Below are positions 18,002 to 48,981 of a stretch of DNA of 64,000 bases, in pieces (the first letter of the stretch is position 1; each line of letters begins with the position of its first letter). The position numbers were made by a program, and so were the translations under genes. The DNA comes from Candidatus Kryptoniota bacterium (GTDB taxonomy: Bacteria; Bacteroidota; Ignavibacteria; Kryptoniales; JAKASW01), in assembly GCA_046705025.1 (NCBI GenBank), contig JBJKQU010000043.1:104961-168960 (forward strand), read 5' to 3'. The notes below the pieces were generated by a model that had not been told where the DNA came from, searched no databases, and saw only the letters and a list, made by a program, of their open reading frames with translations.

Positions 18002-18022
18002 AATACGCAAGTTTGTAGTTAT

Positions 18023-19995: not shown

Positions 19996-20053
19996 TACCG
20001 GAAAATATTTTGAGCAATTAACCTTATCATCTAACCATTAAACCGGAATATCT

Positions 20054-35404: not shown

Positions 35405-35896
35405 TCACTTCTTCGCGTCCACAGAGCGAAGGTACTCAAGCACAGCCCGAGCATCCTGCTTCGTTATTCCCGGTACAATCATTGGAATGTGATATTCATT
35501 AAGGAGCGCCTTTGCGGCAGGATCCTTCGCCTCCATCACTGTGCTGTTTAAAATGAAGTTCATTATCCACTCGGGGCTCCGGCGATTCGTAACGCCTTTC
35601 AGCGCCGGGCCGACAAGTCGTGAGTCCAGCTGGTGACAGGACATACATCTCGCGTCAAAAACACTTTCGCCCTTTCCGGCAAGCTTCTTGTTAATGGGAC
35701 CAAGCTTAAGTTCTTTAATTGGACCGATTCCGAGGTCCTCGTTCTTGCTTTTTGTCGCCTTCTTCGCCTTCGTCGAATCCTGAACCTTAGTCTGATCCTG
35801 TTTCGTTCCAGAAGTCGTAACGGCCTGCTTGGCGGTAGGGGTATAGAAAGCAGCACCGATAAAAAGGACAAAGACGAGCGATGCTAATTGTTTCAT
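35405..35896 (-). CDS. Periplasmic monoheme cytochrome c (Rhodothermus marinus cytochrome c-like)
   Basis: Signal peptide, IGPIK, CMSCH, VGPALKGVTNRR, EY..PM, ARAVLEYLR; start at ATG 35896 after a GGAG RBS. Confidence 0.9.
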   Translation of the reverse strand: MKQLASLVFVLFIGAAFYTPTAKQAVTTSGTKQDQTKVQDSTKAKKATKSKNEDLGIGPIKELKLGPINKKLAGKGESVFDARCMSCHQLDSRLVGPALKGVTNRRSPEWIMNFILNSTVMEAKDPAAKALLNEYHIPMIVPGITKQDARAVLEYLRSVDAKK

Positions 35897-36151
35897 TTGT
35901 TTCTTTCTCCAGATTGATAGTAAATAATGCCGCCGCGTCTGAACCCGCCTCATGCCGGAAAGTTCCGCTCAATGCGCGGCGGTGAAATTCCTCGGCCATG
36001 ACTATGACTTCAAGTGTCTCATGGGCTCCTCCAGCTACAGACTCAGCGATGTTCCAAAGCGGTTCTGCAATTTAAGCAACGAACTCATGCCGTACATCCG
36101 ATGCCGCCTCGCGGTTCATCCTGGATGAGGCGGCGCACCCAATGACGCAAT

Positions 36152-36177
36152 GCCGGGACCCTTTCGCGGGCCCCGGC
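36152..36177 (-). terminator. GC-rich hairpin downstream of cyc2 (terminator or mRNA-stabilising stem)
   Basis: Minus strand GCCGGGGCCC-GCGAAA-GGGTCCCGGC; no U-tract. A second stem GCCGCCTC/GAGGCGGC lies at 36103-36134. Confidence 0.45.
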
Positions 36178-36231
36178 TTGCACAACATGAGTCCTGAATT
36201 TGATGTTAACTTTTACTCGCTTCAACCGATC

Positions 36232-37578
36232 TTACAGTAGGAACCACCAAGTAACGTAAAGCGTGTTATTGTCGGCGGCAGTTCTTCCGAAACCGTCATA
36301 ATTCGTGCTGCTTCCATTGAAGCTGCTATACATCACATATTGCAATGCTAATCTTGTGTTCTGCCACGGGTTGTAAGCCAATTCAGCTGTCAGACCACTG
36401 CTGTTCGGGCTTCCGGACAGGCTGCCGTCGACCGGATCGGGGGCGTAAAGTATGTTGTCGCTCGAGCCCGATGTATTGAAATACTGAAGCATGACGGCAA
36501 GTCCGCGGCAAAATGAAAATGCCCCGTCGACCCGGAATGTATTCAGCGCATTATTAAGGTTTTGGGAGGCACCTGCCGCATAGCTCGCATTGAGCTGCTG
36601 GTTTTCGTGAATCCAGGTGGAATGGAGAACCAACTCGTCGCTGCCAATCGCCTGCTCTAACTGGAAGTCCAGAGCAATATCGGTATAGTTGTCAGTAAGT
36701 CCGCTGATCCCGCCGGGAAAAATGTCCGCTGAAAGGCCGTACGTCCCTATTTCGGCGTAAGTGGTTGACCACTGCTTTTGGAGAGCCACTCTCCAGTATG
36801 GAGCAATTCCGTTTATCGTGAACTGAGAGCCGGAACCCGCAGGAAAAGGCCCACCCTGAGGAGTCGACTTGTAGCCCGAGAGGTCGGCATAGACAAGGTT
36901 ATCATACATCCCGTACGCTCCAAGTCCAGCAACGTTCCCGCCAAGTGCTCCGTCGACCAATGCTGCCGCGCCAGGAGTCGGTGCCGTGCCTGAAGAGGAG
37001 TACGGAAAACCCCAGGCCGGCGTGCTGTTCCAAAGATCTTCGACCGTCGGATTATTGTTCAGGTCAATCCCATAGTCGATCTCATGATTGGAGATGAAAC
37101 CCTGGTTCGAATAACGTATGTCTGTGTTGTCCCATCCGAATGCGGCTCCCTGATCATCGTAGGTAATCTGGGTGAATGCTCCGATATGGGGCGTAATCTG
37201 GCCGCCCAGAAACAGACTAAGCTGCTGGGGAAACTCGAAACTGCCGGTCTTCGTACCCGGCTCCGGCTTCGCGACGTTGTTATACGAGGTCTGAACCATT
37301 GCCGACATAAGGAAATTCTTCAAAAGGCTTAGGGCACCCTGATCGCCTTTGGCCGAATCGCTTATGGTTTGCCTCGTCGTCAACGTGTAGCCGTTGAGTT
37401 TGAATTTTCTCCCGAACGGGGTGAGCTCCGGGTAAGTATAGTGGCATGAACTACAAGGTAAGTTGGTTTGGCGTGCATAACTCGGTATCGCATAAGCATC
37501 AACCGGCAGCACCGATGAAACAGCAAATAATGCTCCGAACAAAAGCAGAGCACCTTTCTTTCCGTAATTTGAGAACAT
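36232..37578 (-). CDS. cyc2: Cyc2-family outer-membrane cytochrome c-porin fusion (candidate Fe(II) oxidase)
   Basis: Signal peptide, then AIPSYARQTNLPCSSCH..PELTPFGRKFKLNGY, followed by a beta-barrel region (FPQQLSLF.GQITPHIG, NNNPTVEDLWN, APYWR, SGSP, PWQNTR). Start at ATG 37578 with AGGA RBS. Confidence 0.9.
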   Translation of the reverse strand: MFSNYGKKGALLLFGALFAVSSVLPVDAYAIPSYARQTNLPCSSCHYTYPELTPFGRKFKLNGYTLTTRQTISDSAKGDQGALSLLKNFLMSAMVQTSYNNVAKPEPGTKTGSFEFPQQLSLFLGGQITPHIGAFTQITYDDQGAAFGWDNTDIRYSNQGFISNHEIDYGIDLNNNPTVEDLWNSTPAWGFPYSSSGTAPTPGAAALVDGALGGNVAGLGAYGMYDNLVYADLSGYKSTPQGGPFPAGSGSQFTINGIAPYWRVALQKQWSTTYAEIGTYGLSADIFPGGISGLTDNYTDIALDFQLEQAIGSDELVLHSTWIHENQQLNASYAAGASQNLNNALNTFRVDGAFSFCRGLAVMLQYFNTSGSSDNILYAPDPVDGSLSGSPNSSGLTAELAYNPWQNTRLALQYVMYSSFNGSSTNYDGFGRTAADNNTLYVTWWFLL

Positions 37579-38832
37579 TGTTATGGTCCTTCGTTTTGTT
37601 ATAGCACTATGTAATCGTTCTTCCGCTCGGCGTTTCTCTGATCGAATCATCGAAATGACCGAAACACACTCTCTCTTCACACATATGGTGAATGACAGCG
37701 AGTCTTGACAAATTCAGATGGCGGAACACACAGAGCGGGCAATCATCTTCCTGTCCACGCCATGAGTCTTCTCTTCCCTGACTCCTGAACATATCAAAAC
37801 CGACAACATAAAGCGCATGGTGCCTCAGTCAATCTGATTCTGCTCAACGGTTCCGAGCGGGAAACCGAAAGATGGCGGCAGAATGTCAACTATTATGAGA
37901 ATGAGGTCAATAAGCATGCCGCATAAACAGGCTGAAATCACGCAAAAAAAGGTAGCCAATCTGCACGTTGCAGTCAAGAGACGGGACTCTGCGGGGCATT
38001 CTCCCCCACCGTAACGTCGAATCTCACGACCATTTTCAAGCGAGTCCTCGGCCTGTTTACCAACTCTGGTTACGTTTCTGATTAACGCACCGGGTAGAGG
38101 GAACGTTTCTCAGCGCGACAAACAGTGCGCTTTTCGCCGATCTCGGGCACATTTGGTCCGAGTGAATCTGGTTTCTGCTTCTCTGTTGAGTCGGAAACCT
38201 CACGGATTAAACGGAGTGAAATCCCCAGCCAACCCTTTTGAAAGCTAAATCTACACATTCTCTTGGCGTTTCAGGTCCAAATGGAACATTTTGACACAAA
38301 AACCTGTTGTTTAATTCTGTACGATTGATTATATATCGTCGAGGATTGACAGCCGAGAAAATACAGAGCAGATTCACAAAATGATATTGTTAGTTACCTT
38401 CTCCGATTTGTTGCCGGGGGGGGTTTTTCATGTTAGTAACAGCAAATCGACACCGATCCGATGTGCCGCAAACTTTCTCCGAAGGCAATGTTGACATACG
38501 ACATTTTCCCGGCATCGTGCCGCCTAACGCCGCTCGGGGAACACCATTGAGCGGATATCGTTTTAGGATTGAATGTGAACCGCTTATAGACGTGCTGGCA
38601 TTCGCACACCGGTTCCCGACAAGTGAAACGACGAGACGTTACGGATGTTAGTCTGTACGGCTCCGCTCGCTTGCGAGAGATATCGTCCGGGTGAAGAACG
38701 CGCGGTACTCCACCCCGTTCACGCCGTAAGATATGCCACAAGACGGCCGCTTAGTCCTGGTCTTCGAATCAGTTTTGAAACTTCAAGGGCTAGCGGCATA
38801 CAACAAAGAAAACAAATCTCAAAGGAAGGGCT

Positions 38833-39369
38833 ATGGCAAACAGAGAAGATCCCCAACTACCAGAAAAGATTGATCCATCACGCCGAAGCTTTCTTAAAAT
38901 CAGCACGAACGTCATCGCAGGGTTTGCAACTCTCATCCTTGCGATTCCCTTTTTAGACGCCCTCATCAGCCCATCACTCAGAGTCAAAGTCGGAAGATTC
39001 GTCAAAGCAGGTCCTGTTTCAGTGCTTCCGGACGATAACCCGCATAAGGTCTTTTTCGACGAGCGCGAGAAAGACGCCTACATTGAACAGACAGAAAGGC
39101 GGGATGTTTGGGCGATCAAACATACTTCATCGGAAGTCACAATTTTCTCGCCGATTTGTCCTCACCTCGGTTGCCGCTACAATTGGCTCCCAACCGAAGA
39201 AATCTTCGCATGCCCATGTCACGGAAGTGAATGGACAAAAGAGGGAAAGATTTTACGCGGTCCGACCCCGCGCCCTCTCGACACCCTTCCTCACAAGATC
39301 GAGGAAGGTGACCTTTATGTGAAATGGGAACGATTCAAACTCGGCGTTCCTAAGAAGATCGTAATATAG
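38833..39369 (+). CDS. Rieske iron-sulfur subunit of a Rieske/cytochrome b complex
   Basis: Tat motif SRRSFLK plus TM; CPHLGC and CPCHGS boxes; GPTPRPL. Confidence 0.96.
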   Translation: MANREDPQLPEKIDPSRRSFLKISTNVIAGFATLILAIPFLDALISPSLRVKVGRFVKAGPVSVLPDDNPHKVFFDEREKDAYIEQTERRDVWAIKHTSSEVTIFSPICPHLGCRYNWLPTEEIFACPCHGSEWTKEGKILRGPTPRPLDTLPHKIEEGDLYVKWERFKLGVPKKIVI

Positions 39370-39380
39370 GAGGAACGCAA

Positions 39381-41420
39381 ATGTTATCGAAACTAAGTGA
39401 TTGGATCGAAAAGAGGTGGCCGCTTCAGACTTTTTGGAAGACTGCTACTGAAGAAGACATCCCGGGCGGTTCCAGCTATGCCTACACGATGGGAAGTGCG
39501 ACTCTTTTTCTATTTCTTCTGCAAATAGTAACAGGCATATGGCAGCTGTTTTACTACGTGCCAACGACAGATCATGCCTACCAGAGCCTCTCTTATCTTC
39601 GGCTCGAAGTCCCGTTTGGATGGCTGATTCACGGCCTACATTTCTGGGGCGCTACAGCCATGGTAATACTGCTCGCAGCACACCTTGCCAGAGTATACAT
39701 ATGGGGTGCTTACAAGAAGCCGCGTGAGCTTACCTGGCTGCTGGGCGTATTCCTTTTTCTGTTTACAATGGCTATGAGCTTCACCGGTGCCGCCCTTCCG
39801 TGGGACGAGACAGGCTACTGGGCGTCTGAGGTGGGCACCAGCATAGCCGGTACTACTCCAGTGATCGGCAGCCTTGCGGAAAACATTCTCCGCGGTGGAG
39901 CTCAAATGACACAGCTCACGCTGTCGCGTTTCTTTATCCTCCACGTAGCCATACTCCCTGCTATCCTTCTCGGTTTCATCGCTCTCCATCTTGTCGCCTT
40001 CCGGCGCAACGGGAGCGTCGGCCCGTGGAAAGAGGAAAGACGTAAACGAGTCGGTCAGTTTTGGCCGGACCAGGTATTCAAGGATGCATTCGTGTTCACT
40101 TTGATTCTTCTGGTGCTGATCGGCCTCGCTGCCTTCTTAGCCCCGCCCTTCTCCGGAGCCGCAGACGCAATCGATACCACTTTCCACCCGAAGCCTGAGT
40201 GGAATTTCCTCTTCTTGTACCAGGCCATCAAAGCCTTCCAGGGACCATGGGAGCCTGTCGGTACTATAGGAATTCCCACCGTCGCTTTCATCGTACTCTT
40301 CACTTTGCCTTTCTTCGATAGAAACCGCGAACGCAATCCGCTCAAAAGGCCCGTTGCCATGATAATGGGATTTATCGTTGCCGCAGGAGTTATCACGCTG
40401 TCGATCACAGGTTACTACAGCCACCCGGGTTCACAGAAAACCGGTACCGCGGCAAAAACGGCCTCAGCCGTGATGCTCAAGACAGCAGACAAGGTGGATC
40501 CTGCTCCTTCTCCGGCTTCACAAGCTGCCCCGCTTACCGCGGCACAGAAAGCGGGTGCCAGGCAAGGCGCCCAGCTGTTCTCGAAGATGGGGTGCGCGGC
40601 CTGTCACACAGTAAACGGTGTCGGAGGGCACGTAGGACCCAACCTGTCAGGTGAAGGTTTGGCAGGACATTCGACAGCATGGCTTGCCCAGCAAATCATG
40701 GATCCTAAGTCACATGATCCGAAGACGGTAATGCCCCCGTTTACCATGTTGAATGACCCACAGGTGGATCATCTCGTTGACTACTTAATAAGCCTTCGCA
40801 ACAAGGTTGCTCCCACCGCCGAGAAGCCTACTTCGGTAGCCTCCGCTCAATCGATGTCGACCACCCCACCTCCAAATCAAAGTGTCATTCAGCTTCCGAG
40901 CGAGGTGGGCGAGCCCGGGAGGGCGGTAAATATGGTCGGAAATGTAGAACACGGGAAGAAATTGTTTGATGCCAATTGCGCCAGCTGCCACGGCCAAGCC
41001 GGCAAGGGCGGAGTGCCTAACCCCGGTTCTTACCTCGGGACAGTCCCCGCGCTGAATCCCGTACGGAAGGAACTCTTCAGCAAGGTTCCGGCTGTCTTTG
41101 CCGAAAATCTCGACCGGTTCATAGAGAATGGAGCTGTCCCGCCCGGACCTAGTCCCCAGAAGCACATGGCTGCTATGAGCATGATAGGATACGGAAAAAC
41201 CCAGTCTCTGACTCAACAGGAGATCTCAAATGTGATTGCCTACATTATGCACCTCAATGGAGTCAGCCGGGCCGAGATTCAGCATCCTGGAATACCCCCA
41301 AAGACATTCTTCTTTATATCGCTCGGAATTTTCGTGGTTCTGTGGATAATTCTCGGAATGATGCGACTGGTCTCAACGCAAGGAAAGACCAGAACGTCGG
41401 ATGACCGTAACTCAGTTTAA
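39381..41420 (+). CDS. Cytochrome b fused to two cytochrome c domains and a C-terminal TM anchor
   Basis: Heme b His motifs (GLHFWG, AHLARV, ILHV, LHLV), LPWD, PEWN; CAACH and CASCH domains separated by P/A/T-rich linkers. Confidence 0.94.
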   Translation: MLSKLSDWIEKRWPLQTFWKTATEEDIPGGSSYAYTMGSATLFLFLLQIVTGIWQLFYYVPTTDHAYQSLSYLRLEVPFGWLIHGLHFWGATAMVILLAAHLARVYIWGAYKKPRELTWLLGVFLFLFTMAMSFTGAALPWDETGYWASEVGTSIAGTTPVIGSLAENILRGGAQMTQLTLSRFFILHVAILPAILLGFIALHLVAFRRNGSVGPWKEERRKRVGQFWPDQVFKDAFVFTLILLVLIGLAAFLAPPFSGAADAIDTTFHPKPEWNFLFLYQAIKAFQGPWEPVGTIGIPTVAFIVLFTLPFFDRNRERNPLKRPVAMIMGFIVAAGVITLSITGYYSHPGSQKTGTAAKTASAVMLKTADKVDPAPSPASQAAPLTAAQKAGARQGAQLFSKMGCAACHTVNGVGGHVGPNLSGEGLAGHSTAWLAQQIMDPKSHDPKTVMPPFTMLNDPQVDHLVDYLISLRNKVAPTAEKPTSVASAQSMSTTPPPNQSVIQLPSEVGEPGRAVNMVGNVEHGKKLFDANCASCHGQAGKGGVPNPGSYLGTVPALNPVRKELFSKVPAVFAENLDRFIENGAVPPGPSPQKHMAAMSMIGYGKTQSLTQQEISNVIAYIMHLNGVSRAEIQHPGIPPKTFFFISLGIFVVLWIILGMMRLVSTQGKTRTSDDRNSV

Positions 41421-41440
41421 CTGAATATTGCAGGACAAGA

Positions 41441-41465
41441 CGTGCCTGGCCTCATGCCAGGCACG
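41441..41465. terminator. Hairpin terminator between the convergent cytochrome b gene and oxidase operon
   Basis: Perfect 10-bp stem CGTGCCTGGC-CTCAT-GCCAGGCACG followed by a pyrimidine-rich tail. Confidence 0.7.
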
Positions 41466-41705: not shown

Positions 41706-43091
41706 CTATTGTGAGTAGGTCACGGTCCCGTTCTTCTTCTCAGCGAGGTAAACGTTCATGATATACTCGGCGACAGCGTGAACTTGTGCCCGGTTCAATC
41801 CCTGTTTGGGCATCGGCGGATATCCTTTCAAAATAGGTGTCGGATTCATAATGAAGGCCTCAAGGTCGTTCATCTTCCCGACATAGTCCGGAAGGACCAT
41901 ATTGTAAGGAGGGCCCACAAGTTTTGTGTTGAACTTATGACATGCGCCGCACGTGTGCGTGTAGATCTCTTTCCCGCTGATCTTCTCCGTCGATACCGTC
42001 GGGAGATTCGCCAACATTTTATTATAGTTGCTGGTTAGGAGTTGATAGTGTGACGAATTAGACTCGCTGAACGAGACTCCGTTACGCGCCATCCATGCAC
42101 CCACCATGACAACGACTCCGACGAAAGCGTATGTACCGAAATTCAGCCTGGTCCGTTTCAGCATCGAGTAGAAGAAGTGAAGGAGGACGAAGACAACCAC
42201 GAGGGCCAGAGCTCCCAACCCGAAGACTACTCCCGCAAGCGCACCGGAGGGAATCTCTGCAAGGTCCAGGAAAATCAGCAGCGGCTGTGCCAAAACAAAG
42301 ATGAGGGCTGTCATAACTGAGAACCGCTTGACAAATGCCTCGTAGTGATCGTCTTCGATCCCTATGCCTCCATCCCAGATAAAGAAGAAGAAGATCGTGG
42401 CCGCAGACTCGATCACCGCTGCCGCTGTTATGAAATGAAGAAGACTGAGTATTGCCGGTCCCGAAAAGAGAATCACCAGATAGTCGGAGCTGCCGTATGC
42501 CCCGGGTCCTCCGATCGCTAGAGCAGTGCCCGCCAGAAAAACCCACGACCCCAGCCAGAGAAGCACGGTTCCGAATATTCCGGCTCGGCGCCGGGTCTGG
42601 TGTGCGGAGACTTCCATCGCGTGAAGATCTACCGAGCTTGCGGAATCGATTTCTTCCCTCTGTGATTCGCTGAGCATCGTATATGACTTGATAAATCCTT
42701 CGAGCCGGAAGCTGTACTTGTACGCAAGCAAAAACATGAACCCAAGGACAAAGAGTACCGTGCTGGCTGCCATATAATTCGTAACGGTCGCGTTTGTATT
42801 GTAAAGCAGCTGCGCGTAGATAAGGAGAACCGTTATGATCGGCAGTATCCCTAAAGCCGTGAATGCGCCTTTTCCCGGGATCGCCATGTCGATGAGATTC
42901 CTCGAGAACCTGTGGTAAATCGGATTGTTGTGCTTTCTGCCTGCACCGTTGAAATATAGCGACAAAGTTGCTCCGACGACGCAGATGCTGACATACATAA
43001 TCATCATTGTCGAGACGAAAGCAAGCAAGTAGTACAGAAGAGTAAGGCGCTCGCCGGATTCCGGAATTACAAGATTGTTGAGGAAATGCAT
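41706..43091 (-). CDS. Polytopic membrane protein with C-terminal monoheme cytochrome c
   Basis: About nine TM segments, then CGACH..LVGP..PPMP class I cytochrome c domain; last gene of the oxidase operon. Confidence 0.85.
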   Translation of the reverse strand: MHFLNNLVIPESGERLTLLYYLLAFVSTMMIMYVSICVVGATLSLYFNGAGRKHNNPIYHRFSRNLIDMAIPGKGAFTALGILPIITVLLIYAQLLYNTNATVTNYMAASTVLFVLGFMFLLAYKYSFRLEGFIKSYTMLSESQREEIDSASSVDLHAMEVSAHQTRRRAGIFGTVLLWLGSWVFLAGTALAIGGPGAYGSSDYLVILFSGPAILSLLHFITAAAVIESAATIFFFFIWDGGIGIEDDHYEAFVKRFSVMTALIFVLAQPLLIFLDLAEIPSGALAGVVFGLGALALVVVFVLLHFFYSMLKRTRLNFGTYAFVGVVVMVGAWMARNGVSFSESNSSHYQLLTSNYNKMLANLPTVSTEKISGKEIYTHTCGACHKFNTKLVGPPYNMVLPDYVGKMNDLEAFIMNPTPILKGYPPMPKQGLNRAQVHAVAEYIMNVYLAEKKNGTVTYSQ

Positions 43092-43095
43092 CGTG

Positions 43096-44109
43096 CTAGA
43101 ACCTCCATGGTGAGATCAGGTTGAGAAGCGCAGCGACCAGTATGACAACGGTAACTGCCAGAACATAAACGTTAATCTTCATGAACGCGGCTTTATACAC
43201 CTTTTTGTTGCCGTGATCCCTGACAATACCCACAGTGCTCAGGGCCAACCAAATGCCCAATCCCACGACGATTCCTGCAGCACCTGTCCCCCGGACGACA
43301 CCTGTAGTCAAGAAGAGTCCGGATAGCAATACGAGGGAGACTGTCCACGCATAAGTCGTAACAGCAAATGTCCTTTCCGACATGATTCTCTTCAGCGTAG
43401 GGAATCCCGCCCGTTCATAATCAGCTGTGTAAATGTCCATAAGCAGCCAGAAATGCGGGATTTGCCAGACGAAGAAATATAGAGAGAGGGCTATAAGCCT
43501 TGGATCCAGAATACTCCCTCCGGCGGCAGCCCAGCCGGCCATTATCGGCAGAGAACCTACAAACGATCCCGGAATAACCGCAAACGCAGTTTTCTTTTTC
43601 AAAGGAGTGTATATGCCGTTGTACCAGACAAGCGCGAGAAGTGCGAGGACAAGCGCCGGTGCATTTCCCCACACGTAGGTGACGGCGGAACCCACGACAG
43701 TCAGTGCTATTAACACTGTCAGCGCCGCGCGCGAGCTCACGATTCCCGAAGGAAGAGGACGCCGCATTGTACGGTGCATCAACCCATCCGTGAGCCGTTC
43801 CTGATAGTGGTTCAAGACTGCAGAGCCACACGCAACGAGGAAGATTCCAAGGGTAGCCATCAGCATCCTGAAGGAAATGTCGTTTGCAGCCAGGACGTAT
43901 CCGAACAAAGCGGACATGCCCACGAAGAAAGTGATCTTAATCTTGACGAGTTCCAGGAAAGCCCTCGACAGATCCTTAATGCGTTCCACATGTCCTGTGA
44001 CGGGAAGCTCCAGCGCGGCAGATCCCTCCCCGGCAATTCTTCTCAGAGGAACGCCGGGCCCGCCGACGGTTCCCGTGATCTTTCCAGTGCGATCGGAGTT
44101 AGTATTCAT
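43096..44109 (-). CDS. ctaB: Protoheme IX farnesyltransferase (heme O synthase)
   Basis: N..ER..D.LM.RT..RPLPSG, YTPLKK, WQIPHFW, DYERAG. Confidence 0.95.
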   Translation of the reverse strand: MNTNSDRTGKITGTVGGPGVPLRRIAGEGSAALELPVTGHVERIKDLSRAFLELVKIKITFFVGMSALFGYVLAANDISFRMLMATLGIFLVACGSAVLNHYQERLTDGLMHRTMRRPLPSGIVSSRAALTVLIALTVVGSAVTYVWGNAPALVLALLALVWYNGIYTPLKKKTAFAVIPGSFVGSLPIMAGWAAAGGSILDPRLIALSLYFFVWQIPHFWLLMDIYTADYERAGFPTLKRIMSERTFAVTTYAWTVSLVLLSGLFLTTGVVRGTGAAGIVVGLGIWLALSTVGIVRDHGNKKVYKAAFMKINVYVLAVTVVILVAALLNLISPWRF

Positions 44110-44127
44110 TTGGGCCTCTGTCCCTTA

Positions 44128-44784
44128 TCAGAAATACGTCGTCTTGTACTTATCGGCAACTTCGGGCATCGATGTGCTGCTAGAGCCAAGCCAGGAGTCG
44201 AATACACTGTCCGGAAGGACAACCATCTTCGTCCTCATGTTGGCATGGCCGAACCCGCAATACTTGGCGCAGAGTATATCGTAATCACCCAGCTTCTCCG
44301 GATAAAGCATCATGTGACGCACCCTGTCCGGGAGCGCATCCTGCTTCTCTCTGAAAGCGGGCAAATAAAAGCTGTGGATGACGTCAAGTGATTCTATTAA
44401 ACACTCCAACGGTCTTCCCTGTGGGACGTAGAGGGTGTCGGTGCGTTTGCCGTTCTGATACTCGAAGGACCACTTCCATTGTTGGGCAAAGACTCTGACG
44501 GGCAGAGAATTCTTCGGGATGACGTTCATTTGTGCGTATGCCACCCACCCGTAGTAGAACATCACGAGCACGAGCAGCGTCGGAACAACGGTCCAGATTA
44601 CCTCGAGCGCGACGTTGTTCGGGATACTCGTCGCGACGGGATGCCTCTTGTGATTGTACTTGAAGACGAAGAGCAGCATGAAGAATATGACGATCAAGAA
44701 CAGAACAATTGACGCGATCACCATGAATCTCATGTCGTCGTCCACGGCCTGAGCGTGATTCAATGCGTATGGCAGCAATCTCAT
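44128..44784 (-). CDS. coxB: Cytochrome c oxidase subunit II (CuA), no fused cytochrome c
   Basis: Two TM segments, LEVIWT, QQWKW, DVIHSF, CAKYCGFGHANM. Confidence 0.95.
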   Translation of the reverse strand: MRLLPYALNHAQAVDDDMRFMVIASIVLFLIVIFFMLLFVFKYNHKRHPVATSIPNNVALEVIWTVVPTLLVLVMFYYGWVAYAQMNVIPKNSLPVRVFAQQWKWSFEYQNGKRTDTLYVPQGRPLECLIESLDVIHSFYLPAFREKQDALPDRVRHMMLYPEKLGDYDILCAKYCGFGHANMRTKMVVLPDSVFDSWLGSSSTSMPEVADKYKTTYF

Positions 44785-44793
44785 TTGTTACAC

Positions 44794-45093
44794 CTATCTC
44801 CTGAAATAAACGTCTGCAAAAGTGAGGAAAAAGATCACGAACAGGGTACTCCCCGCAATGACGAGAAATACCTTAAAGATTCTATCTCCGAACTTCACAT
44901 GCATGAAGACATTAACCACAAGGGATGACTTCACCGCAGCAATCAGCAAAGCAATGATCAATGTGAATGCTGCCAGGTTGATGCCCGCAACAACGGCGGT
45001 AATCGCCGTGAGCGCCATAAGCGCCAACCATACGAGCACATAGATGCCGAATGTTATCGGTGCCTCGTGCTCTTCAGTCTCGGTTTCTTTCAT
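44794..45093 (-). CDS. coxD: Cytochrome c oxidase subunit IV
   Basis: Three TM segments, K..LV...FMHVK motif. Confidence 0.92.
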   Translation of the reverse strand: MKETETEEHEAPITFGIYVLVWLALMALTAITAVVAGINLAAFTLIIALLIAAVKSSLVVNVFMHVKFGDRIFKVFLVIAGSTLFVIFFLTFADVYFRR

Positions 45094-45104
45094 TGTCTTC
45101 TCCC

Positions 45105-45749
45105 TCAGTTAACCAGGTAGAATAGCGGGAACAGGAATATCCAGATAATGTCGATCAGGTGCCAGTACAGGCCTGCCGCTTCAAGCCTTACCGAATCTTG
45201 CTGGTTAATCTTTCCCTTTAGAATGAATATGAGCATGGTTGTCAGGAGGCCGCATCCCACCAGCACGTGGAGGCCGTGCAGGCCTGTCATCAGGTAGTAC
45301 ATGGCGAAGAAGAGCTCGAATCCCCTCGGATGCTGAAAGAGTTTGGCAGAGCCGGGATAAATGCCGTCGGCTATCTCCGTCGACCATTCCGCATACTTGA
45401 TAACCAGGAAGCCAAGTCCTAAAGCTATCGTAGAGGAGAGGAAAGTAACGGAGAGCCACTTCTTCCCTCTTTCAATAGCGGTGATAGAAAGAGCCATGGT
45501 AAGACTGCTCGTCAGCAGCACCATCGTGTTTACGGTGCCGTACATCGTGTGGGTTTCCATCGCGGCTTGGTGGAACTCCTTCGTATAGAAATATCGATAC
45601 GCGGAATATAGCAGGAACATTCCGCTGAAGAGAAGCAGCTCGGTCATGAGGAACAGCCACATCCCCATTTTTATTCCCTTTACATCCTTGGCGGGATGCT
45701 CTTCGTGCCGGAGCGGCTCAGCCCTTTCGGGCAACGACAATTCACTCAC
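45105..45749 (-). CDS. coxC: Cytochrome c oxidase subunit III (short form)
   Basis: GMWLFLMTE, NTMVLLTSS, TGLHGLHV, LYWHLIDIIW. Confidence 0.96.
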   Translation of the reverse strand: MSELSLPERAEPLRHEEHPAKDVKGIKMGMWLFLMTELLLFSGMFLLYSAYRYFYTKEFHQAAMETHTMYGTVNTMVLLTSSLTMALSITAIERGKKWLSVTFLSSTIALGLGFLVIKYAEWSTEIADGIYPGSAKLFQHPRGFELFFAMYYLMTGLHGLHVLVGCGLLTTMLIFILKGKINQQDSVRLEAAGLYWHLIDIIWIFLFPLFYLVN

Positions 45750-47397
45750 TTCGTTAACGCCTCCTCGTGGTAATACGGCTCATGGGTGATAACAGGTTCT
45801 ACTTCGAAATTTTCATGTGCGGGCGGCGACGGGATGGTCCATTCAAGCGTGGTACCACCCCATGGATTCTTTCCGATGCGCGGCCCTTTCATCATCCCGT
45901 GAATGAGATTGACGAACATCACGATAAGCGCCGGCACCAGAATCCAGGACCCGATGATGCTGATTCGCTGAAGTGTTTCAAAGTGCAATGGGTAGGTGTA
46001 GTATCTCCGCGGCATCCCTTCGTATCCCATGATGAACATCGGGAAATAAAGCAGATTGAATCCGATAAACATTACAAGGAGTGCCCAGCTGGCCAGCTTC
46101 TTGCTGTACATTCGGCCCGACATTTTGGGAAGCCAGTAGTGGAGCGCGCCGAAAAAGATGAACATACCACCGCCGAAAATGATGTAGTGAAAATGAGCGA
46201 CTACAAAATATGTAGACGTGAGGTGGACGTCGGTAGCCAGCGAACCCAGGACGAGACCGCTCAGTCCTCCGATGGAGAAAAGCGCCATAAAGGCCATAAC
46301 GAAGAGAAAGGGAGGCTGCGGATCAATCGACCCCTTGTACATGGAGGCGACCCAGTTGAATACTTTTATGCCGCTCGGAATTGCGACCATAAACGTCAGG
46401 AAAGAAAAGATCATATCCGCCTGCTGAGACATCCCGGCTACAAACATGTGGTGTCCCCATACAAGGTAACCTATGAAGGCAATAGCCAGGCTGGACATCG
46501 CTATCATTTTGTATCCGAATATCGTTCGGTGACTGAAGGTTGCGATAATTTCCGAAACTATTCCCATCGGCGGCAGTATCATTATGTAGACCGCAGGGTG
46601 CGAATATATCCAAAAGAGGTGCTGGTACATGACAGGATCACCTCCGGCGGCCGCATTGAAAATTCCGACTCCGAATATGCGGGATATCATAATGAGCATA
46701 AGCGTGATTGCGAGAACCGGCGTAGCGATAATCTGTACCCACGCCGTCGCGTAAAGAGCCCACACAAACAGCGGCATCTTGAACCACGTCATGCCTGGAG
46801 CTCTCAGCCTGTGGATCGTGGTGAGGAAGTTGATGCCGGTGAGAATCGATGAGAAACCGACGATGAAAACTCCCCACACGGCAATCGTTACTCCCGTTGT
46901 CGTATTCAGACTGTAAGGAACGTAGAAGGTCCATCCAGTGTGTCCGGAAGTCCATTGATGAACAGGGAAAGAAGAATCACGATTGCGCCTGTTACGTAGA
47001 GATACCACGAGAAAAGATTCAGTCTCGGAAACGCCACGTCTTTCGCCCCGATCTGCAAAGGCAGGAAGAAATTCCCCAAGGTCACGGGAATTCCGGGGAT
47101 GACAACGAGAAACATCATTATGACCCCGTGAAGCGTGAACATAGCGTTGTAAACCTGAGCACCGACAAGCTTGCCGCCCGGGGTCAGCATCTCAAGACGC
47201 ATCAAGACACCGAGCACTACTCCGACGGAGAAGAAACTGAACAGGACCACCATGTACATGATGCCGATGCGCTTGTGGTCGGTAGAAAGCAGCCATGCCG
47301 CCAGGCCCTTGTGCTTCCCCGTATTTTCCAGATAGCTACCTTTTATGACGGACGACTCCGTCGGCGGAATTGCCTCTGGTAGAGCGATCTCAGCCAT
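45746..47397 (-). pseudogene. coxA: Cytochrome c oxidase subunit I (A2 type), split by a 2-bp frameshift near 46940; real lesion or assembly error
   Basis: 5' ORF has STDHKRIG, FTLHG, DVAFPRLN; 3' ORF has GWTFY, WIYSHPAVY, WGHHM, AHFHY, MPRRY. Removing 2 nt from 1652 nt gives 550 codons. Confidence 0.92.
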
Positions 47398-47400
47398 TTC

Positions 47401-48225
47401 TCAGTTTCCTCCTCTGGCGTGTTTGAGTTTTTTCGTCCTCCACAGGAACACACCGACTCCCAGCAGGAAGATTGTGGTTCCCCAACCGACCACTTCCAGA
47501 GTATCGAGTCCATAACCCTTCTCAGAGGGATCGTAACTGAAACACATCTTCAGTACCGTCCCTATGATTGGAGCAAACTTGTTTTGCTTAGCGTTCAGAA
47601 TCGCCATTTCGACATCGATCGCGTTAAAGGTCGTTCCGTATATGTACCTTGTGATTTTCCCTTCTTTGCTGACAAAGATGAGTGCAGTCGGATGCGTGAA
47701 TGTCTTGCCGTCTTTATTCCTGATGAAGTAGAATCCCAGTTCGTTTGTAAGCTTGTAAATATTCGCGCTGTCACCGGTCAGGAATCTCCATGCATCCGAA
47801 GGGAATGGACGATTCATCATACCGACGAAAGAACCTTTTTTTTGACGCGCGCGGGCCGGTGTATCGGTGGTGTCAAAACTGATGGTCGCCACCCTGTAAT
47901 CTTTGCCTGGAGCGTCGCTGATCTTTTCGAGAACATCCTGAACGCCGCCAAAGACCGCGTCGCAAATGCCCGGACACGTATAATATGCCATGTCTATTAT
48001 GAGAGGTTTCCCGTCGGACAAATCGGCAAGGGTCATCCGTTTTCCATTCGAGTCGATGAAACTCAAGTTCATATCTATTTTTTTGCCGAGGTGCTGGACA
48101 ATGCCGACGGCCGGATGGCTCGCGTCCTCTGCCGATGCAAACGGAGGGGACCCTGTTAACATGAACATGACAGCGGAACTGAAAACTGCAATTACTAACG
48201 GATTAATAACTCTCTTCATCTTCAT
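47401..48225 (-). CDS. SCO-family copper chaperone
   Basis: Signal peptide, YYTCPGIC (CxxxC), WRFLTG, FTHP, C-terminal TM; start uncertain. Confidence 0.92.
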   Translation of the reverse strand: MKMKRVINPLVIAVFSSAVMFMLTGSPPFASAEDASHPAVGIVQHLGKKIDMNLSFIDSNGKRMTLADLSDGKPLIIDMAYYTCPGICDAVFGGVQDVLEKISDAPGKDYRVATISFDTTDTPARARQKKGSFVGMMNRPFPSDAWRFLTGDSANIYKLTNELGFYFIRNKDGKTFTHPTALIFVSKEGKITRYIYGTTFNAIDVEMAILNAKQNKFAPIIGTVLKMCFSYDPSEKGYGLDTLEVVGWGTTIFLLGVGVFLWRTKKLKHARGGN

Positions 48226-48267
48226 TCTCCCAATATACTTCGTACTCAAACCTCCAAAAGGGATTGT

Positions 48268-48981
48268 TCAGTCATTGCCCTGTGCAGTTCCGCCCGCCTT
48301 CGAGGCCATTTTGGCCAGTTTCTCGACGTCGGCTTTTGTCTCTTTGGGAAATCCCTCGAAGGTTCTGATGTAGCTTATTATATCAATCCTGTCGTTGATT
48401 GAAATGGTGCTGAAAGGAGGCATGGGGCTTCCGGGTATTCCGTCGGTTAGAGTCTTGAACATGCCCGACGCCATCCGGCCGTTTATCCAGCCCTTAGCCG
48501 AATGAAAGTCACGCGGCTTCGGCTTCAAAGCTGCTGCTGCAGGTCCGTCGCCTTCGCCATTCGCTCCGTGGCAGGCGACACAGTTGTTCATGTAGAGGTT
48601 CTTCCCCTTCTCTATCATCTCTTCCGACGGCGACATCAGGCCAGCATACCTTTTGAAATCGACAGACGCTTCAGACGCCGATGAAGGTGCGGGGGCTGCA
48701 CCGGACACCGCCGAAGCTTCTGATGACTTCGACGTCGCAGGAGTTGCGGCGGCGGATTCTGAAGCGTTCGAACTCGGTTGAGTTAGTGCTGCCTGACTGG
48801 TAGCGGCCGCTGGGGTGGAGACGGGGCTCTGCTTAGCTTGCCGATGGGCTGAATAAAGGAAACCCACTCCGACGACTACACCGACGAAATACACATAATA
48901 CAGCGCGCGCCACCATGACTTCCTTTCGAAGAATGATGCCTCCGGATCCGGATTACCTCTCTGTAATTGTCCTTCCATCAA
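48268..48981 (-). CDS. Membrane-anchored monoheme cytochrome c with flexible A/S/T/P linker
   Basis: N-terminal TM, low-complexity linker, CVACHG..G.GDGP, PKPRDF, GIPGSPMP; first gene of the oxidase operon. Confidence 0.92.
   Translation of the reverse strand: MMEGQLQRGNPDPEASFFERKSWWRALYYVYFVGVVVGVGFLYSAHRQAKQSPVSTPAAATSQAALTQPSSNASESAAATPATSKSSEASAVSGAAPAPSSASEASVDFKRYAGLMSPSEEMIEKGKNLYMNNCVACHGANGEGDGPAAAALKPKPRDFHSAKGWINGRMASGMFKTLTDGIPGSPMPPFSTISINDRIDIISYIRTFEGFPKETKADVEKLAKMASKAGGTAQGND

What the first reader, a model, noticed from the sequence alone, without database searches (positions are those of the whole stretch)
35405..48981. Co-located Cyc2 - cytochrome c - Rieske/cytochrome b - heme-copper oxidase cluster: candidate complete Fe(II)-oxidation chain in an FCB-type bacterium
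Seen: within 13.6 kb, with no recognisable unrelated gene inside, lie an outer-membrane Cyc2, a periplasmic cytochrome c, a divergent Rieske plus cytochrome b-c-c pair, and an operon cytc-SCO-coxA-C-D-B-ctaB-membrane cytc (six CxxCH motifs in total). Established: Acidithiobacillus ferrooxidans passes electrons from Cyc2 downhill to an aa3 oxidase and uphill through a bc1 complex, encoded in separate rus and pet operons. Inference: both branches are clustered here, rusticyanin is absent, and the host looks like an Ignavibacteria/Kryptonia-type organism with peptide, nucleoside and glycoside catabolism genes. That would imply an unrecognised mixotrophic iron oxidiser or electron-uptake architecture.
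Basis: partly seen in the sequence, partly recalled or inferred. Interest (0 to 1): 0.9.

Follow-up and report, generated by a model that had tools for sequence, protein, structure and literature searches.

The report
Iron-oxidase-like porin joined to respiratory chain
A sediment bacterium of the little-known Kryptonia group keeps a gene for an outer-membrane iron-oxidase-type cytochrome right beside its oxygen-respiring machinery, which makes it a good candidate for an overlooked iron-oxidising organic-matter feeder, although one key oxidase gene is broken in this assembly.

Summary

The 448-aa protein meets the published sequence criteria for Cyc2 and models as a roughly 16-strand porin. No validated Cyc2 sequence could be compared.

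All five congeners with the same cluster read through it. This is the only haem-copper O2 reductase found in the genome.

The host is a Kryptonia-type heterotroph. No RuBisCO was found.

- **Cluster conservation:** the whole cluster is conserved in 6 of 26 genus genomes.
- **Complex III:** those six lack the alternative complex III (ACIII) that sits beside cox in other congeners. The Rieske/cytochrome b-dihaem c complex is therefore most simply their forward complex III, not an uphill branch.
- **Cyc2 wiring:** Cyc2-type genes in this lineage recur beside oxidases, this bc type or Qrc-like complexes.

Verdict: a new variant of the known Cyc2 pathway. Fe(II) oxidation is plausible but unproven. 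Interest 0.6.

The parts
35405..35953 (-). Small c-type cytochrome, the constant partner of cyc2. It has an N-terminal signal or anchor, a Lys-rich linker and one CxxCH. The likely start is M20 at 35896.
   Evidence: PF00034, E 2.9e-12. Sequence and hydrophobic segment. A homologue lies 25-320 nt downstream of cyc2 in all 14 genus loci examined and in 27 of the 80 wider loci.
36232..37578 (-). Cyc2-family fused monohaem cytochrome-porin of 448 aa. It has a signal peptide, then AIPSYARQTNLPCSSCHYTYPEL, then a barrel of about 16 strands.
   Evidence: Sequence. Family consensus carries the Keffer motif with F. Motif definition read in PMC8406198. AF2 model: pLDDT 72.7, pTM 0.75, about 16 long strands. 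Foldseek top hits are 16-strand porins, E 7e-9. No Pfam, NCBIfam or PDB sequence hit.
37579..38832 (.). Divergent spacer between cyc2 and the Rieske gene. Conserved blocks lie at about 37957-37980 and 38283-38336. These are presumed regulatory or promoter regions; their function is not shown.
   Evidence: Alignment of 5 genomes: mean identity 51%, with invariant runs in these blocks. No Rfam family. Promoter-like scan gave no more hits than shuffles.
38833..39369 (+). Rieske [2Fe-2S] subunit with a twin-arginine signal.
   Evidence: PF00355, E 5e-9. TIGR01416, E 8e-18, below cut-off. The CPHLGC and CPCHGS boxes are seen in the sequence.
39381..41420 (+). Cytochrome b plus subunit IV, fused to two cytochrome c domains and a C-terminal membrane anchor (679 aa).
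   Evidence: PF00033 E 1.5e-49, PF00032 E 6.6e-9, PF00034 x2. CxxCH at residues 405 and 533, eight hydrophobic segments.
41441..41465 (+). Terminator-like hairpin after the bc genes, between the two convergent operons.
   Evidence: 10-pair stem with 8 GC pairs. This is a consensus scan only.
41706..43091 (-). Membrane protein of 461 aa and unknown family (about 8-9 helices) with a C-terminal cytochrome c domain. It is the last gene of the cox operon.
   Evidence: Only the cytochrome c domain matches Pfam, even at E<=10. Atlas scores are at most 0.86. It is conserved after ctaB in 10 congeners at 40-74% identity. The AF2 model is poor, pLDDT 56.5.
43096..44109 (-). Haem O synthase CtaB.
   Evidence: PF01040, E 1.8e-39. 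TIGR01473, E 3e-52, below cut-off.
44128..44784 (-). Cytochrome c oxidase subunit II with CuA ligands and no fused cytochrome c.
   Evidence: TIGR02866, 161.4 bits, above the 147.7 cut-off. H...CAKYCGFGHANM seen in the sequence.
44794..45093 (-). Oxidase subunit IV (CoxD).
   Evidence: PF03626, E 4.4e-11.
45105..45749 (-). Oxidase subunit III (CoxC).
   Evidence: PF00510, E 2.9e-21.
45746..47397 (-). Oxidase subunit I (CoxA), broken by a +2 frameshift at the (AC)3 run 46938-46943. The two ORFs are 46906-47397 and 45746-47008.
   Evidence: PF00115 positions 1-106 fall in one ORF and 103-436 in the other. Four congeners read LPDTGWTFY in one frame. In G041 the two matches also share one frame (coordinates). 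The matching frame is 541-651 aa in 22 of 23 other genus genomes, against 481 aa here.
47401..48249 (-). SCO-type copper chaperone with a CPGIC motif and a C-terminal anchor.
   Evidence: PF02630, E 2.2e-10. Sequence.
48268..48981 (-). Membrane-anchored monohaem cytochrome c with an Ala/Ser-rich linker. It is the first gene of the cox operon and the likely electron donor to CuA.
   Evidence: PF00034, E 2.3e-16. One hydrophobic segment and one CxxCH. It precedes SCO-cox in all congeners examined.

Best explanation
The 13.6-kb cluster is this clade's only high-potential aerobic respiratory branch, with an outer-membrane Cyc2-type module attached.

**Shown**
- Gene identities.
- Conservation of the gene order in five congeners.
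- Loss, in this clade, of the ACIII that sits beside cox in other congeners.

**Inferred: routine heterotrophic respiration**
- Quinol passes electrons to the Rieske/cytochrome b-dihaem c complex.
- That complex passes them to the tethered c-type cytochromes (the 237-aa protein, and perhaps the 461-aa protein).
- These feed the A-family cytochrome c oxidase, which reduces O2.

**Inferred: iron input**
- Cyc2 oxidises a small soluble reductant at the cell surface, most probably Fe(II).
- It hands the electron to the adjacent small cytochrome c.
- That cytochrome feeds the same c-cytochrome pool and oxidase.
- This would give a facultative, mixotrophic energy supplement. It resembles the downhill arm of the Acidithiobacillus rus operon, but without rusticyanin.

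The bc complex is primarily the forward complex III. Reverse flow is possible but not required.

In this particular assembly coxA carries a +2 frameshift. It is either an assembly error or strain-level variant, or the oxidase arm is inactive in this strain.
For: **Gene identities:**

**Cyc2 criteria of Keffer et al. (PMC8406198; passages read)**
- Signal peptide, a single CxxCH, and a length of at least 365 aa are all met.
- The upstream AxPxFAR[Q/K][T/Y] motif is present. The window protein has Y in place of F. The 33-sequence family consensus has F.
- PxL lies 4 residues after CxxCH.
- A porin barrel is predicted.
- The Atlas neighbour that carries a Pfam family has Porin_O_P, in 20% of its members.

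**Synteny in the genus**
- The full cluster is present in G007, G008, G014, G020 and G041.
- The canonical ActC is found in 0 of 6 cluster-bearing genomes, against 4 of 4 other congeners.
- ACIII beside cox in G001 was verified with Pfam, including ActD PF11821 at E 2e-58.

**Cyc2 genes beside oxidases elsewhere**
- G006, G018 and G024 have ACIII-cox-ctaB-461aa, then a third Cyc2 type, then a dihaem c.
- Three of 4 sister-family loci have coxB, then coxA fused to an SCO-like part, then a Cyc2-like gene, then a dihaem c.

**Only cytochrome c oxidase in the genome**
- The PF00115 search gave the window gene, a qNOR on contig C216 and one sub-threshold hit.

**Heterotrophy**
- No RuBisCO was found.
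Against: - No expression, activity or redox data exist for any of these proteins.
- No sequence comparison with a validated Cyc2 was possible. The only links are the motif, the architecture and survey papers.
- The spacing between the motif and CxxCH is 3 residues here. The paper's text says '5 amino acids upstream', and its Fig. S8 could not be seen.
- coxA is broken in this assembly, and no reads could be laid on it.
- cyc2 and the oxidase operon are separate transcription units here. They are separated by the divergent bc genes and a terminator-like hairpin.
- No haem A synthase (PF02628) was found in the genome, so 'aa3' is unproven.
- The genome also has 13 ORFs with 3-18 CxxCH motifs. 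The Kryptonia founding paper proposed ferric iron respiration, so outward electron transfer is a live alternative.
- In 56 of 80 wider Cyc2 loci no complex III-type neighbour was detected. Among Gemmatimonadota-labelled loci only 1 of 30 had one.
Confidence: 0.5

Rival explanations
1. Outward conduit. The Cyc2-type protein is the exit of an anaerobic respiration. Electrons run from quinol to the bc complex (or a Qrc/ACIII-like complex), then to cytochrome c, then to Cyc2, then to a soluble high-potential extracellular acceptor such as chelated Fe(III). Cyc2 would then not mark iron oxidation in these heterotrophs.
For: - Cyc2 genes sit directly in operons with quinone-linked complexes. 23 of 80 wider loci have one within 3 kb. 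Among FCB-labelled loci, 21 of 42 have one within 10 kb.
- In the genus, 8 loci have a Qrc-like set and 1 has Rieske/cytb-cc downstream of cyc2-cytc.
- The fused cytb-cc type occurs at 10 genus loci, and 9 of them lie beside a Cyc2-family gene.
- The host is heterotrophic and rich in multihaem cytochromes.
- The Kryptonia paper proposed ferric iron respiration.
- The cytochrome b scores close to ExtP of a Geobacter selenite/tellurite-reduction operon: 208 bits against a cut-off of 290.
Against: - Co-location with cytochrome c oxidase genes in three different layouts ties the module to O2 respiration.
- The only measured neutrophilic Cyc2 potential is +208 mV (abstract of PMC8406198). That is too high to reduce most Fe(III) forms at neutral pH (inference).
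- All validated Cyc2 proteins act as oxidases, according to the same paper.
Confidence: 0.2
2. This is a bifurcated lithotroph-style chain in which the clustered bc complex works mainly in reverse, pushing Fe(II) electrons uphill to the quinone pool and NAD, as the petI complex does in Acidithiobacillus.
For: - All components are co-located.
- cyc2-cytc-Rieske-cytb operons are frequent in FCB MAGs.
- The published neutrophile model links Cyc2, Cyc1 and ACIII or bc1 (PMC5566968; passages read).
Against: - No RuBisCO was found. No ATP-citrate-lyase domain was found either, but the control for that search was silent.
- Heterotrophic genes surround the cluster.
- The bc complex replaces the ACIII that otherwise serves the oxidase, so a forward role is needed and is sufficient.
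Confidence: 0.1
3. The neighbourhood carries no iron function. The Cyc2-like protein is a porin-cytochrome with another role, such as oxidising or sensing some other small redox species. Its adjacency to cox and bc reflects only shared regulation of periplasmic cytochromes. In this strain the oxidase arm is a decaying pseudogene.
For: - coxA is frameshifted in G000 alone among the genus genomes.
- Cyc2 homologues are common in organisms not known to oxidise iron (PMC6344600).
- Cyc2 presence is patchy within the genus: 17 of 24 genomes have any match.
Against: - The conserved motif is stated to be unique to Cyc2.
- Three diverged Cyc2 types keep the motif and keep the respiratory neighbours.
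- All other cluster genes are intact here, and the cluster is conserved in five congeners.
Confidence: 0.15

Closest known systems
rus operon of Acidithiobacillus ferrooxidans (cyc2-cyc1-cup-coxBACD-rus), with the separate petI bc1 operon
   Same: An outer-membrane Cyc2, a periplasmic c-type cytochrome and an A-family cytochrome c oxidase are encoded together. A Rieske/cytochrome b complex belongs to the same scheme (table and text of PMC10654088).
   Different: - There is no rusticyanin or other PF00127 cupredoxin.
- The partner cytochrome is monohaem here.
- The bc genes lie inside the cluster and carry a fused dihaem c.
- The host is a neutrophile-type heterotroph without RuBisCO.
- cyc2 is transcribed apart from cox.
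- Sequence relatedness to the Acidithiobacillus protein was not tested.
Neutrophilic Cyc2 pathway (Mariprofundus PV-1, Gallionellaceae: Cyc2 to Cyc1 to cbb3 oxidase, with ACIII or bc1 for reverse flow)
   Same: - The fused cytochrome-porin architecture and the N-terminal motif are shared.
- Both propose hand-over to a small periplasmic cytochrome c.
- Both link to complex III-type enzymes.
   Different: - In those genomes the link to ACIII or bc1 is described as co-occurrence in the passages I read (PMC5566968). Here it is physical adjacency.
- The oxidase here is A-family, not cbb3.
- The organism is not an autotroph.
ACIII-cytochrome c oxidase gene supercluster of Bacteroidota (ACIII-aa3 supercomplex of Flavobacterium johnsoniae; recalled, not checked here)
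   Same: Congeners G001, G009, G018, G024 and G006 have ActA-F, then cytochrome c, SCO, coxACDB and ctaB in one row. The window keeps the cox part of that row.
   Different: In the window clade ACIII is gone (0 of 6 genomes). A Rieske/cytb-dihaem c complex plus cyc2-cytc sits at the far end of the row.
bc complexes with dihaem cytochrome c (actinobacterial QcrCAB type)
   Same: A Rieske protein, a cytochrome b and two c-type haem domains are present. NF050122 QcrC matches at E 2.5e-12.
   Different: - The score of 46.7 bits is far below the cut-off of 200.
- The dihaem c is fused to the C-terminus of cytochrome b.
- This fused type was found in 0 of 300 other genomes of a phylum-wide sample at E<=1e-90.
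Qrc menaquinone reductase of sulfate reducers (relevant to the congeners' other cyc2 loci)
   Same: Downstream of cyc2-cytc in 8 genus loci lie a c7-type multihaem protein, a molybdopterin-like subunit, a separate 4-cluster FeS subunit and one NrfD subunit. Their best NCBIfam hits are QrcA, QrcB and QrcC.
   Different: - All scores are below the cut-offs (97/180, 245/440, 269/400). The membrane subunit scores better as DsrP.
- The set is not present in the window cluster itself. G000 has such a set on contig C167 without cyc2.

Membership tests
Cyc2 fused cytochrome-porin (criteria of Keffer et al. 2021, FeGenie) | Signal peptide and a single N-terminal CxxCH | tested here: met
   There is a hydrophobic N-terminus ending in AYA, and one CSSCH at residue 42 of 448.
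Cyc2 fused cytochrome-porin (criteria of Keffer et al. 2021, FeGenie) | AxPxFAR[Q/K][T/Y] upstream of CxxCH, and PxL 4 residues downstream | tested here: met
   The window protein has AIPSYARQT, with a conservative F-to-Y change, and PEL. The consensus of 33 relatives has AIPSFARQT. Two other Kryptonia types have the exact motif. The spacer to the first Cys is 3 residues. The paper's '5 amino acids upstream' could not be checked against its Fig. S8.
Cyc2 fused cytochrome-porin (criteria of Keffer et al. 2021, FeGenie) | Length of at least 365 aa, with a C-terminal porin barrel of about 16 strands | tested here: met
   The protein is 448 aa. The AF2 model has about 16 long strands, pLDDT 72.7. 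Foldseek top hits are 16-strand porins, E 7e-9, TM about 0.6 on the target. OprO and OprP, named in the paper, were not among the hits listed.
Cyc2 fused cytochrome-porin (criteria of Keffer et al. 2021, FeGenie) | Score above cut-off with a FeGenie Cyc2 HMM, or significant similarity to a validated Cyc2 (PV-1, A. ferrooxidans, Cyt572) | not testable with these tools
   No FeGenie models and no validated sequence were obtainable. Searches returned only unnamed proteins or ones called 'cytochrome C'.
Cyc2 fused cytochrome-porin (criteria of Keffer et al. 2021, FeGenie) | Fe(II) oxidase activity and outer-membrane location | not testable with these tools
   This needs an experiment.
Rieske/cytochrome b (bc-type) complex | A Rieske 2Fe-2S subunit with Tat signal, plus a cytochrome b with N- and C-terminal domains, plus a c-type haem subunit | tested here: met
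   PF00355, PF00033, PF00032 and two PF00034 stretches are above Pfam cut-offs. No NCBIfam equivalog cut-off is reached, so this is a divergent subtype.
A-family haem-copper cytochrome c oxidase ('aa3') | Subunits I, II (CuA), III and IV | tested here: met
   PF00115, PF00116 with PF02790, PF00510 and PF03626 all match. CoxB is above the TIGR02866 cut-off. CuA ligands are present.
A-family haem-copper cytochrome c oxidase ('aa3') | Intact catalytic subunit I | tested here: not met
   There is a +2 frameshift at 46938-46943 in this assembly. The gene is intact in congeners.
A-family haem-copper cytochrome c oxidase ('aa3') | Haem A supply (CtaA/COX15) | tested here: not met
   PF02628 was not found in the 97.85%-complete genome, while the control search hit 7 named genomes. 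Only CtaB is present, so the haem type is open.
rus-type iron oxidation operon | Rusticyanin as the periplasmic carrier | tested here: not met
   No cupredoxin is in the cluster. PF00127 is absent from the genome. Whether rusticyanin falls under PF00127 is recalled, not checked.

The most novel reading that the evidence does not exclude
Kryptonia and many other FCB-group heterotrophs carry modular Cyc2 cassettes. These are hard-wired either to a cytochrome c oxidase or to menaquinone-linked complexes (a dedicated Rieske/cytb-dihaem c complex, or a Qrc-like complex under a sigma-54 two-component system).

This would be an unrecognised trans-envelope link between soluble extracellular iron and the respiratory chain in organotrophs. 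It could act as widespread facultative Fe(II) oxidation. Where it is wired to quinone-linked complexes, it could act as electron uptake into, or discharge from, the quinone pool.

Cyc2 would then not be a one-way marker of lithotrophic iron oxidation.
Probability: 0.3. Interest if true: 0.8.

Novelty: new variant of a known kind. Interest (0 to 1): 0.6.

Why it matters
Cyc2 is the main gene marker used to infer iron oxidation from metagenomes. Most of its homologues, however, lie in uncultured organisms that are not known iron oxidisers, and their role there is open.

Here the gene context gives a concrete, testable wiring diagram in a heterotrophic lineage. The Cyc2-cytochrome c pair is repeatedly and independently joined to cytochrome c oxidases and to quinone-linked complexes.

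If Fe(II) oxidation is confirmed, mixotrophic iron oxidation by common sediment and soil FCB bacteria would need to be added to iron and carbon budgets. If the flow is outward, the use of Cyc2 as an oxidation marker would need revision.

The clade also shows a clean replacement of ACIII by a rare fused bc complex beside the same oxidase operon.

Tried and rejected
**Sequence and family searches on the Cyc2-like protein**
- Pfam found nothing, also at E<=10. NCBIfam and the PDB sequence search found nothing.
- The Atlas gave only unnamed 'cytochrome c' clusters, plus one cluster in which 20% of members carry Porin_O_P.
- A region-limited homologue search with the N-terminus of the third Cyc2 type aimed to reach named iron oxidisers. 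It returned only Kryptonia-type proteins.
- The link to validated Cyc2 therefore rests on the motif and the architecture.

**Rejected readings**
- *The contig C216 oxidase is a cbb3 enzyme.* It is a qNOR, with a NorB cytochrome c-like domain.
- *The complex beside the congeners' other cyc2 loci is ACIII.* It has separate B and C subunits and one NrfD subunit, and its best hits are Qrc. I now call it Qrc-like.
- *The bc complex is an uphill branch.* I downgraded this after finding that ACIII is missing in all six cluster-bearing genomes.
- *The 461-aa protein is a substitute haem A synthase.* No invariant membrane histidine was found, the model is poor at pLDDT 56.5, and I did not send that model to a fold search. 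Its function stays unknown.
- *Programmed frameshift in coxA.* I saw no slippery heptamer at the site and the congeners are in frame, so I treat it as a mutation or an error.

**Searches that found nothing useful**
- Rfam found no family in the cluster; the one hit had E 0.42.
- The promoter-like scan gave 13 hits against 12.7 expected.
- nosZ propeller (PF18764) and ATP-citrate lyase (PF16114) searches were empty, but their controls were silent, so they are uninformative. NrfA was not found.

**Literature**
- Searches, and passages from 13 papers, turned up no description of cyc2 operonic with bc, Qrc or ACIII, or with cox, in FCB bacteria.
- Supplements were not seen, including Fig. S8 of PMC8406198 and Supplementary Fig. 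8 of PMC4737851. They may bear on the motif spacing and on what the Kryptonia authors called the iron pathway.

**Jobs not run**
- Complex prediction was not run, because a transient electron-transfer pair is a poor case for it.

Full report
**1. What is in the window**

On the minus strand lie a small cytochrome c (35405-35953) and a 448-aa protein (36232-37578). The latter has no Pfam, NCBIfam or PDB sequence match.

Across a 1.25-kb spacer, on the plus strand, lie two genes:
- a Tat-signal Rieske protein (38833-39369);
- a 679-aa fusion of cytochrome b, subunit IV, two cytochrome c domains and a C-terminal anchor (39381-41420).

A minus-strand operon converges on these. In order it reads:
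- membrane-anchored cytochrome c (48268-48981);
- SCO;
- coxA, coxC, coxD and coxB;
- ctaB;
- a 461-aa polytopic protein with a C-terminal cytochrome c (41706-43091).

A script counted six CxxCH motifs. CoxB exceeds the curated CoxB cut-off and keeps the CuA ligands.

The flanks are ordinary:
- on one side, a nucleoside-type ABC transporter and purine nucleoside phosphorylase;
- on the other side, biotin carboxyl carrier protein and biotin carboxylase;
- further out, an M13 peptidase, a rhamnosidase-like protein, MutS2 and other housekeeping genes.

**2. The broken oxidase gene**

coxA is in two overlapping ORFs. PF00115 positions 1-106 fall in one and 103-436 in the other.

Comparison with four congeners shows that the window has two extra bases, an (AC)3 run at 46938-46943. 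The congeners read LPDTGWTFY in a single frame there. In G041 the two coxA matches also share one frame, judging from the coordinates.

Across the genus, coxA was found in 24 of 26 genomes. The matching open frame is 541-651 aa in 22 of the 23 other genomes, 375 aa in G017, and 481 aa here.

The genome-wide PF00115 search found only this gene, one gene on contig C216 and one sub-threshold hit. The C216 gene is a quinol NO reductase. A bd oxidase is present.

So the window holds the only cytochrome c oxidase found in a 97.85%-complete genome, and it is broken as assembled. The read tools did not complete, so I could not tell error from mutation.

**3. Is the 448-aa protein a Cyc2?**

Keffer et al. 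(PMC8406198; passages read) define the family by these features:
- a signal peptide;
- one CxxCH;
- an AxPxFAR[Q/K][T/Y] motif upstream, which they call unique to Cyc2;
- PxL four residues downstream;
- a length of at least 365 aa;
- a 16-strand porin.

The window protein reads AIPSYARQTNLPCSSCHYTYPEL after an AYA cleavage-type site. The consensus of 33 relatives has F where it has Y.

An AlphaFold2 model from that alignment (pLDDT 72.7, pTM 0.75) has a signal helix, a small low-confidence helical domain and about 16 long strands. Foldseek's best PDB matches are 16-strand general porins, at E 7e-9.

The family is large. At least 6965 proteins scored E<=0.001 among 8000 candidates. Sources name them only 'cytochrome C', from Bacteroidetes, Kryptoniota, Ignavibacteriaceae, Calditrichia and Zixibacteria MAGs.

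I could not obtain any validated Cyc2 sequence or the FeGenie models. Membership therefore rests on the published sequence criteria, all met, and not on direct similarity.

Survey papers already report FeGenie Cyc2 hits in Ignavibacteriales and Zixibacteria MAGs (PMC8478452). They also report Cyc2 homologues in Ignavibacteriaceae and Bacteroidetes MAGs (PMC6344600).

**4. Host**

The nearest loci are titled as follows:
- 'Bacteroidetes bacterium' (80% identity);
- 'Candidatus Kryptoniota bacterium' (74%);
- a congener's protein is named 'Candidatus Kryptonia bacterium';
- the sister family's protein closely resembles one from 'Candidatus Kryptobacter tengchongensis'.

No RuBisCO was found. The ATP-citrate lyase search was empty but had no working control.

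The genome has 13 ORFs with 3 to 18 CxxCH motifs.

The Kryptonia founding paper describes motile heterotrophs with aerobic respiration. It proposes ferric iron respiration through a pathway 'non-homologous' to Mtr (PMC4737851; passages read). Its Supplementary Fig. 8 was not seen.

**5. Synteny in the genus**

The whole cluster recurs in five congeners: G007, G008, G014, G020 and G041. It runs from the nucleoside phosphorylase to the biotin carboxylase. Protein identities are 51-61% for the two small cytochromes, 72-80% for Cyc2 and 89-92% for CoxA. That makes 6 of 26 genus genomes.

Other congeners show what the locus looked like before.
- G001, G009, G018, G024 and G006 have, in one row: a canonical ACIII, cytochrome c, SCO, coxACDB, ctaB and the 461-aa protein.
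- The ACIII was verified in G001: a c7-type ActA, a 1029-aa fused ActB, an NrfD-type ActC, and ActD (PF11821, E 2e-58) fused to a cytochrome c.
- In G018, G024 and G006 a third Cyc2 type of about 406 aa and a dihaem cytochrome c follow. In G018 the nucleoside phosphorylase gene comes next.
- That third type carries AIPLFARKYHVSCFRCH. It is homologous to the window family over the N-terminal 137 columns (hhalign probability 99%, E 9e-18).

The window clade therefore keeps the resident cox operon. In the slot before the phosphorylase gene it has a different Cyc2-cytochrome c pair plus the Rieske/cytb-dihaem c genes.

The canonical ActC was found in 0 of 6 cluster-bearing genomes. One of these, G041, is only 84% complete. 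It was found in 4 of 4 other congeners tested, at 78-100% identity.

The simplest reading is that the bc complex has replaced ACIII as the complex III serving this oxidase.

**6. Cyc2 genes and respiratory complexes more widely**

*Other Cyc2 loci in the genus (49-56% identity).*
- Eight loci read: histidine kinase, cyc2, cytochrome c, then a Qrc-like set.
- That set has a c7-type multihaem protein, a molybdopterin-like subunit, a separate FeS subunit and one NrfD subunit.
- In the example annotated in detail (L120), a sigma-54 response regulator and a receiver protein lie between the kinase gene and cyc2.
- The best NCBIfam hits are QrcA, QrcB and QrcC, all below cut-off.
- One locus (G005:C73) has cyc2, cytochrome c, Rieske and cytb-cc instead. 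One locus is cut by a contig end.

*The fused cytb-cc type.*
- It occurs at 10 genus loci. Nine lie beside a Cyc2-family gene. The tenth is a 5.5-kb contig cut just upstream.
- One of the nine is a second copy in the window's own genome. On contig C35 it is followed by a paralogue of about 480 aa with the exact motif.
- This type is rare elsewhere. It was found in 0 of 300 other genomes of a phylum sample at E<=1e-90. In a class sample of 201 genomes, matches above 60% identity came only from this genus.

*The 80 best loci from species-representative genomes.*

| Group of loci | Rieske/cytb or Qrc-like set within 10 kb |
|---|---|
| All | 24 of 80 |
| FCB-labelled | 21 of 42 |
| Gemmatimonadota-labelled | 1 of 30 |
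| Acidobacteriota-labelled | 2 of 4 |
| Others | 0 of 4 |

- 23 of the 80 have such a neighbour within 3 kb.
- Only the two congeners among the 80 have cox nearby.
- The detection used tblastn with FCB queries, and many loci have short flanks. Only 46 of 80 have at least 5 kb on both sides. Absences are therefore soft.
- With a few such complexes per genome of about 4 Mb, chance adjacency within 3 kb would be well under 1% per locus. This is my estimate. Related genomes are not independent.

*The sister family.* Three of 4 loci hold a compact row: coxB, then coxA fused to an SCO-like part, then a Cyc2-like gene, then a dihaem cytochrome c.

**7. Mechanism**

Identities, order, conservation and the ACIII replacement are shown. 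The electron path is inferred.

*Forward respiration.* Because the bc complex is the only complex III-type partner left for the only cytochrome c oxidase, its main job is probably forward. Electrons would go from quinol to the bc complex, then to the tethered cytochromes c, then to the oxidase.

*Iron input.* The Cyc2-cytochrome c pair would add a side entry. Fe(II), or another small soluble reductant that fits a narrow barrel, is oxidised at the surface. Its electron joins the c-cytochrome pool. This parallels the downhill arm of the Acidithiobacillus rus operon (PMC10654088) and the neutrophile model Cyc2-Cyc1-oxidase (PMC5566968).

*Why inward flow is favoured.* Three different layouts place a Cyc2 type beside a cytochrome c oxidase. 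That argues for flow to O2.

*Why the rival stays open.* The frequent operons with quinone-linked complexes in heterotrophs have no obvious role in simple downhill oxidation. They keep the outward-conduit rival alive, or imply electron entry into the quinone pool.

**8. Novelty**

The parts and the pathway idea are known. Cyc2 homologues in FCB MAGs are in print, and iron respiration has been proposed for Kryptonia.

In six literature searches and passages from 13 papers I found no description of three things:
- the physical joining of Cyc2 genes to oxidase operons and to dedicated bc or Qrc-like complexes in these lineages;
- the ACIII-to-bc swap beside a conserved cox operon;
- a Cyc2 assignment in Kryptonia.

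I rate this a new variant of a known kind. It is interesting mainly because it turns the open question of what Cyc2 does in non-lithotrophs into a testable wiring diagram.

**9. Limits**

- There are no reads, no expression data and no validated reference sequences.
- Tallies come from tblastn with queries from this lineage.
- Genus counts involve related genomes.
- The haem type of the oxidase is unknown, because no CtaA was found.
- The 461-aa protein remains unassigned.

Noticed in passing
window 41706-43091 (-); congener loci L015-L018, L129, L131-L135: A 461-aa polytopic membrane protein with a C-terminal cytochrome c closes the cox operon in every congener examined (40-74% identity). It has no family match. 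The genome has ctaB but no CtaA/COX15, so the haem type of the oxidase and the role of this protein are open.
   Followed up: partly
G000 contig C35 (L038: 103-654 and 934-2631): The same genome holds a second, truncated copy of the fused cytochrome b-dihaem c gene (65% identity). It is followed directly by a Cyc2 paralogue of about 480 aa (29% identity) with the exact AIPSFARQT motif. G011:C92 has the same pair, preceded by cytochrome c and Rieske genes.
   Followed up: partly
L137 9022-13901 (G028), also L139 and L140: The sister family resembles Ca. Kryptobacter. It has a compact row: coxB, then coxA fused to an SCO-like C-terminal part (738 aa), then a Cyc2-like protein (387 aa), then a dihaem cytochrome c. 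This is a minimal rus-operon-like set.
   Followed up: partly
L120 5373-18360; L021-L028; G000 contig C167 (L136 2614-7474): In congeners a second Cyc2 type lies in one row with a histidine kinase, a small cytochrome c and a Qrc-like four-subunit complex. In the example annotated in detail (L120) a sigma-54 response regulator and a receiver protein are also present. The window's own genome has a Qrc-like set with the regulators on contig C167, but no cyc2 beside it.
   Followed up: partly
G000 contigs C24, C223, C30, C198, C181: Thirteen ORFs carry 3 to 18 CxxCH motifs. Four of them lie on contig C24, with 18, 14, 6 and 4 motifs. This suggests multihaem extracellular electron-transfer machinery in the same organism.
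   Followed up: no
G000 contig C216 (L039 8841-11144 -, 6604-7287 +): A quinol-type nitric oxide reductase (NorB with a cytochrome c-like N-terminal domain, 767 aa) lies next to a Crp/Fnr-type regulator and NADH dehydrogenase antiporter-like subunits.
   Followed up: partly
window 37957-37980 and 38283-38336: Two short blocks in the cyc2-Rieske spacer are nearly invariant in all five genomes aligned, while the rest of the spacer is unalignable. They are candidate promoter or operator sites for the divergent units. The 102-aa ORF at 38433-38741 is not conserved.
   Followed up: partly
window 18001-20000: G+C drops to 0.406 against about 0.51 elsewhere. The dip lies over a rhamnosidase-like ORF (18526-19995) and may mark a small acquired segment.
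   Followed up: no
window 48268-48981: The anchored cytochrome c that heads the cox operon gives a weak partial match to NCBIfam 'cytochrome 579' of Leptospirillum: E 8.6e-10, 38.6 bits against a cut-off of 280. The match covers only the haem-binding region, so it is not membership.
   Followed up: no
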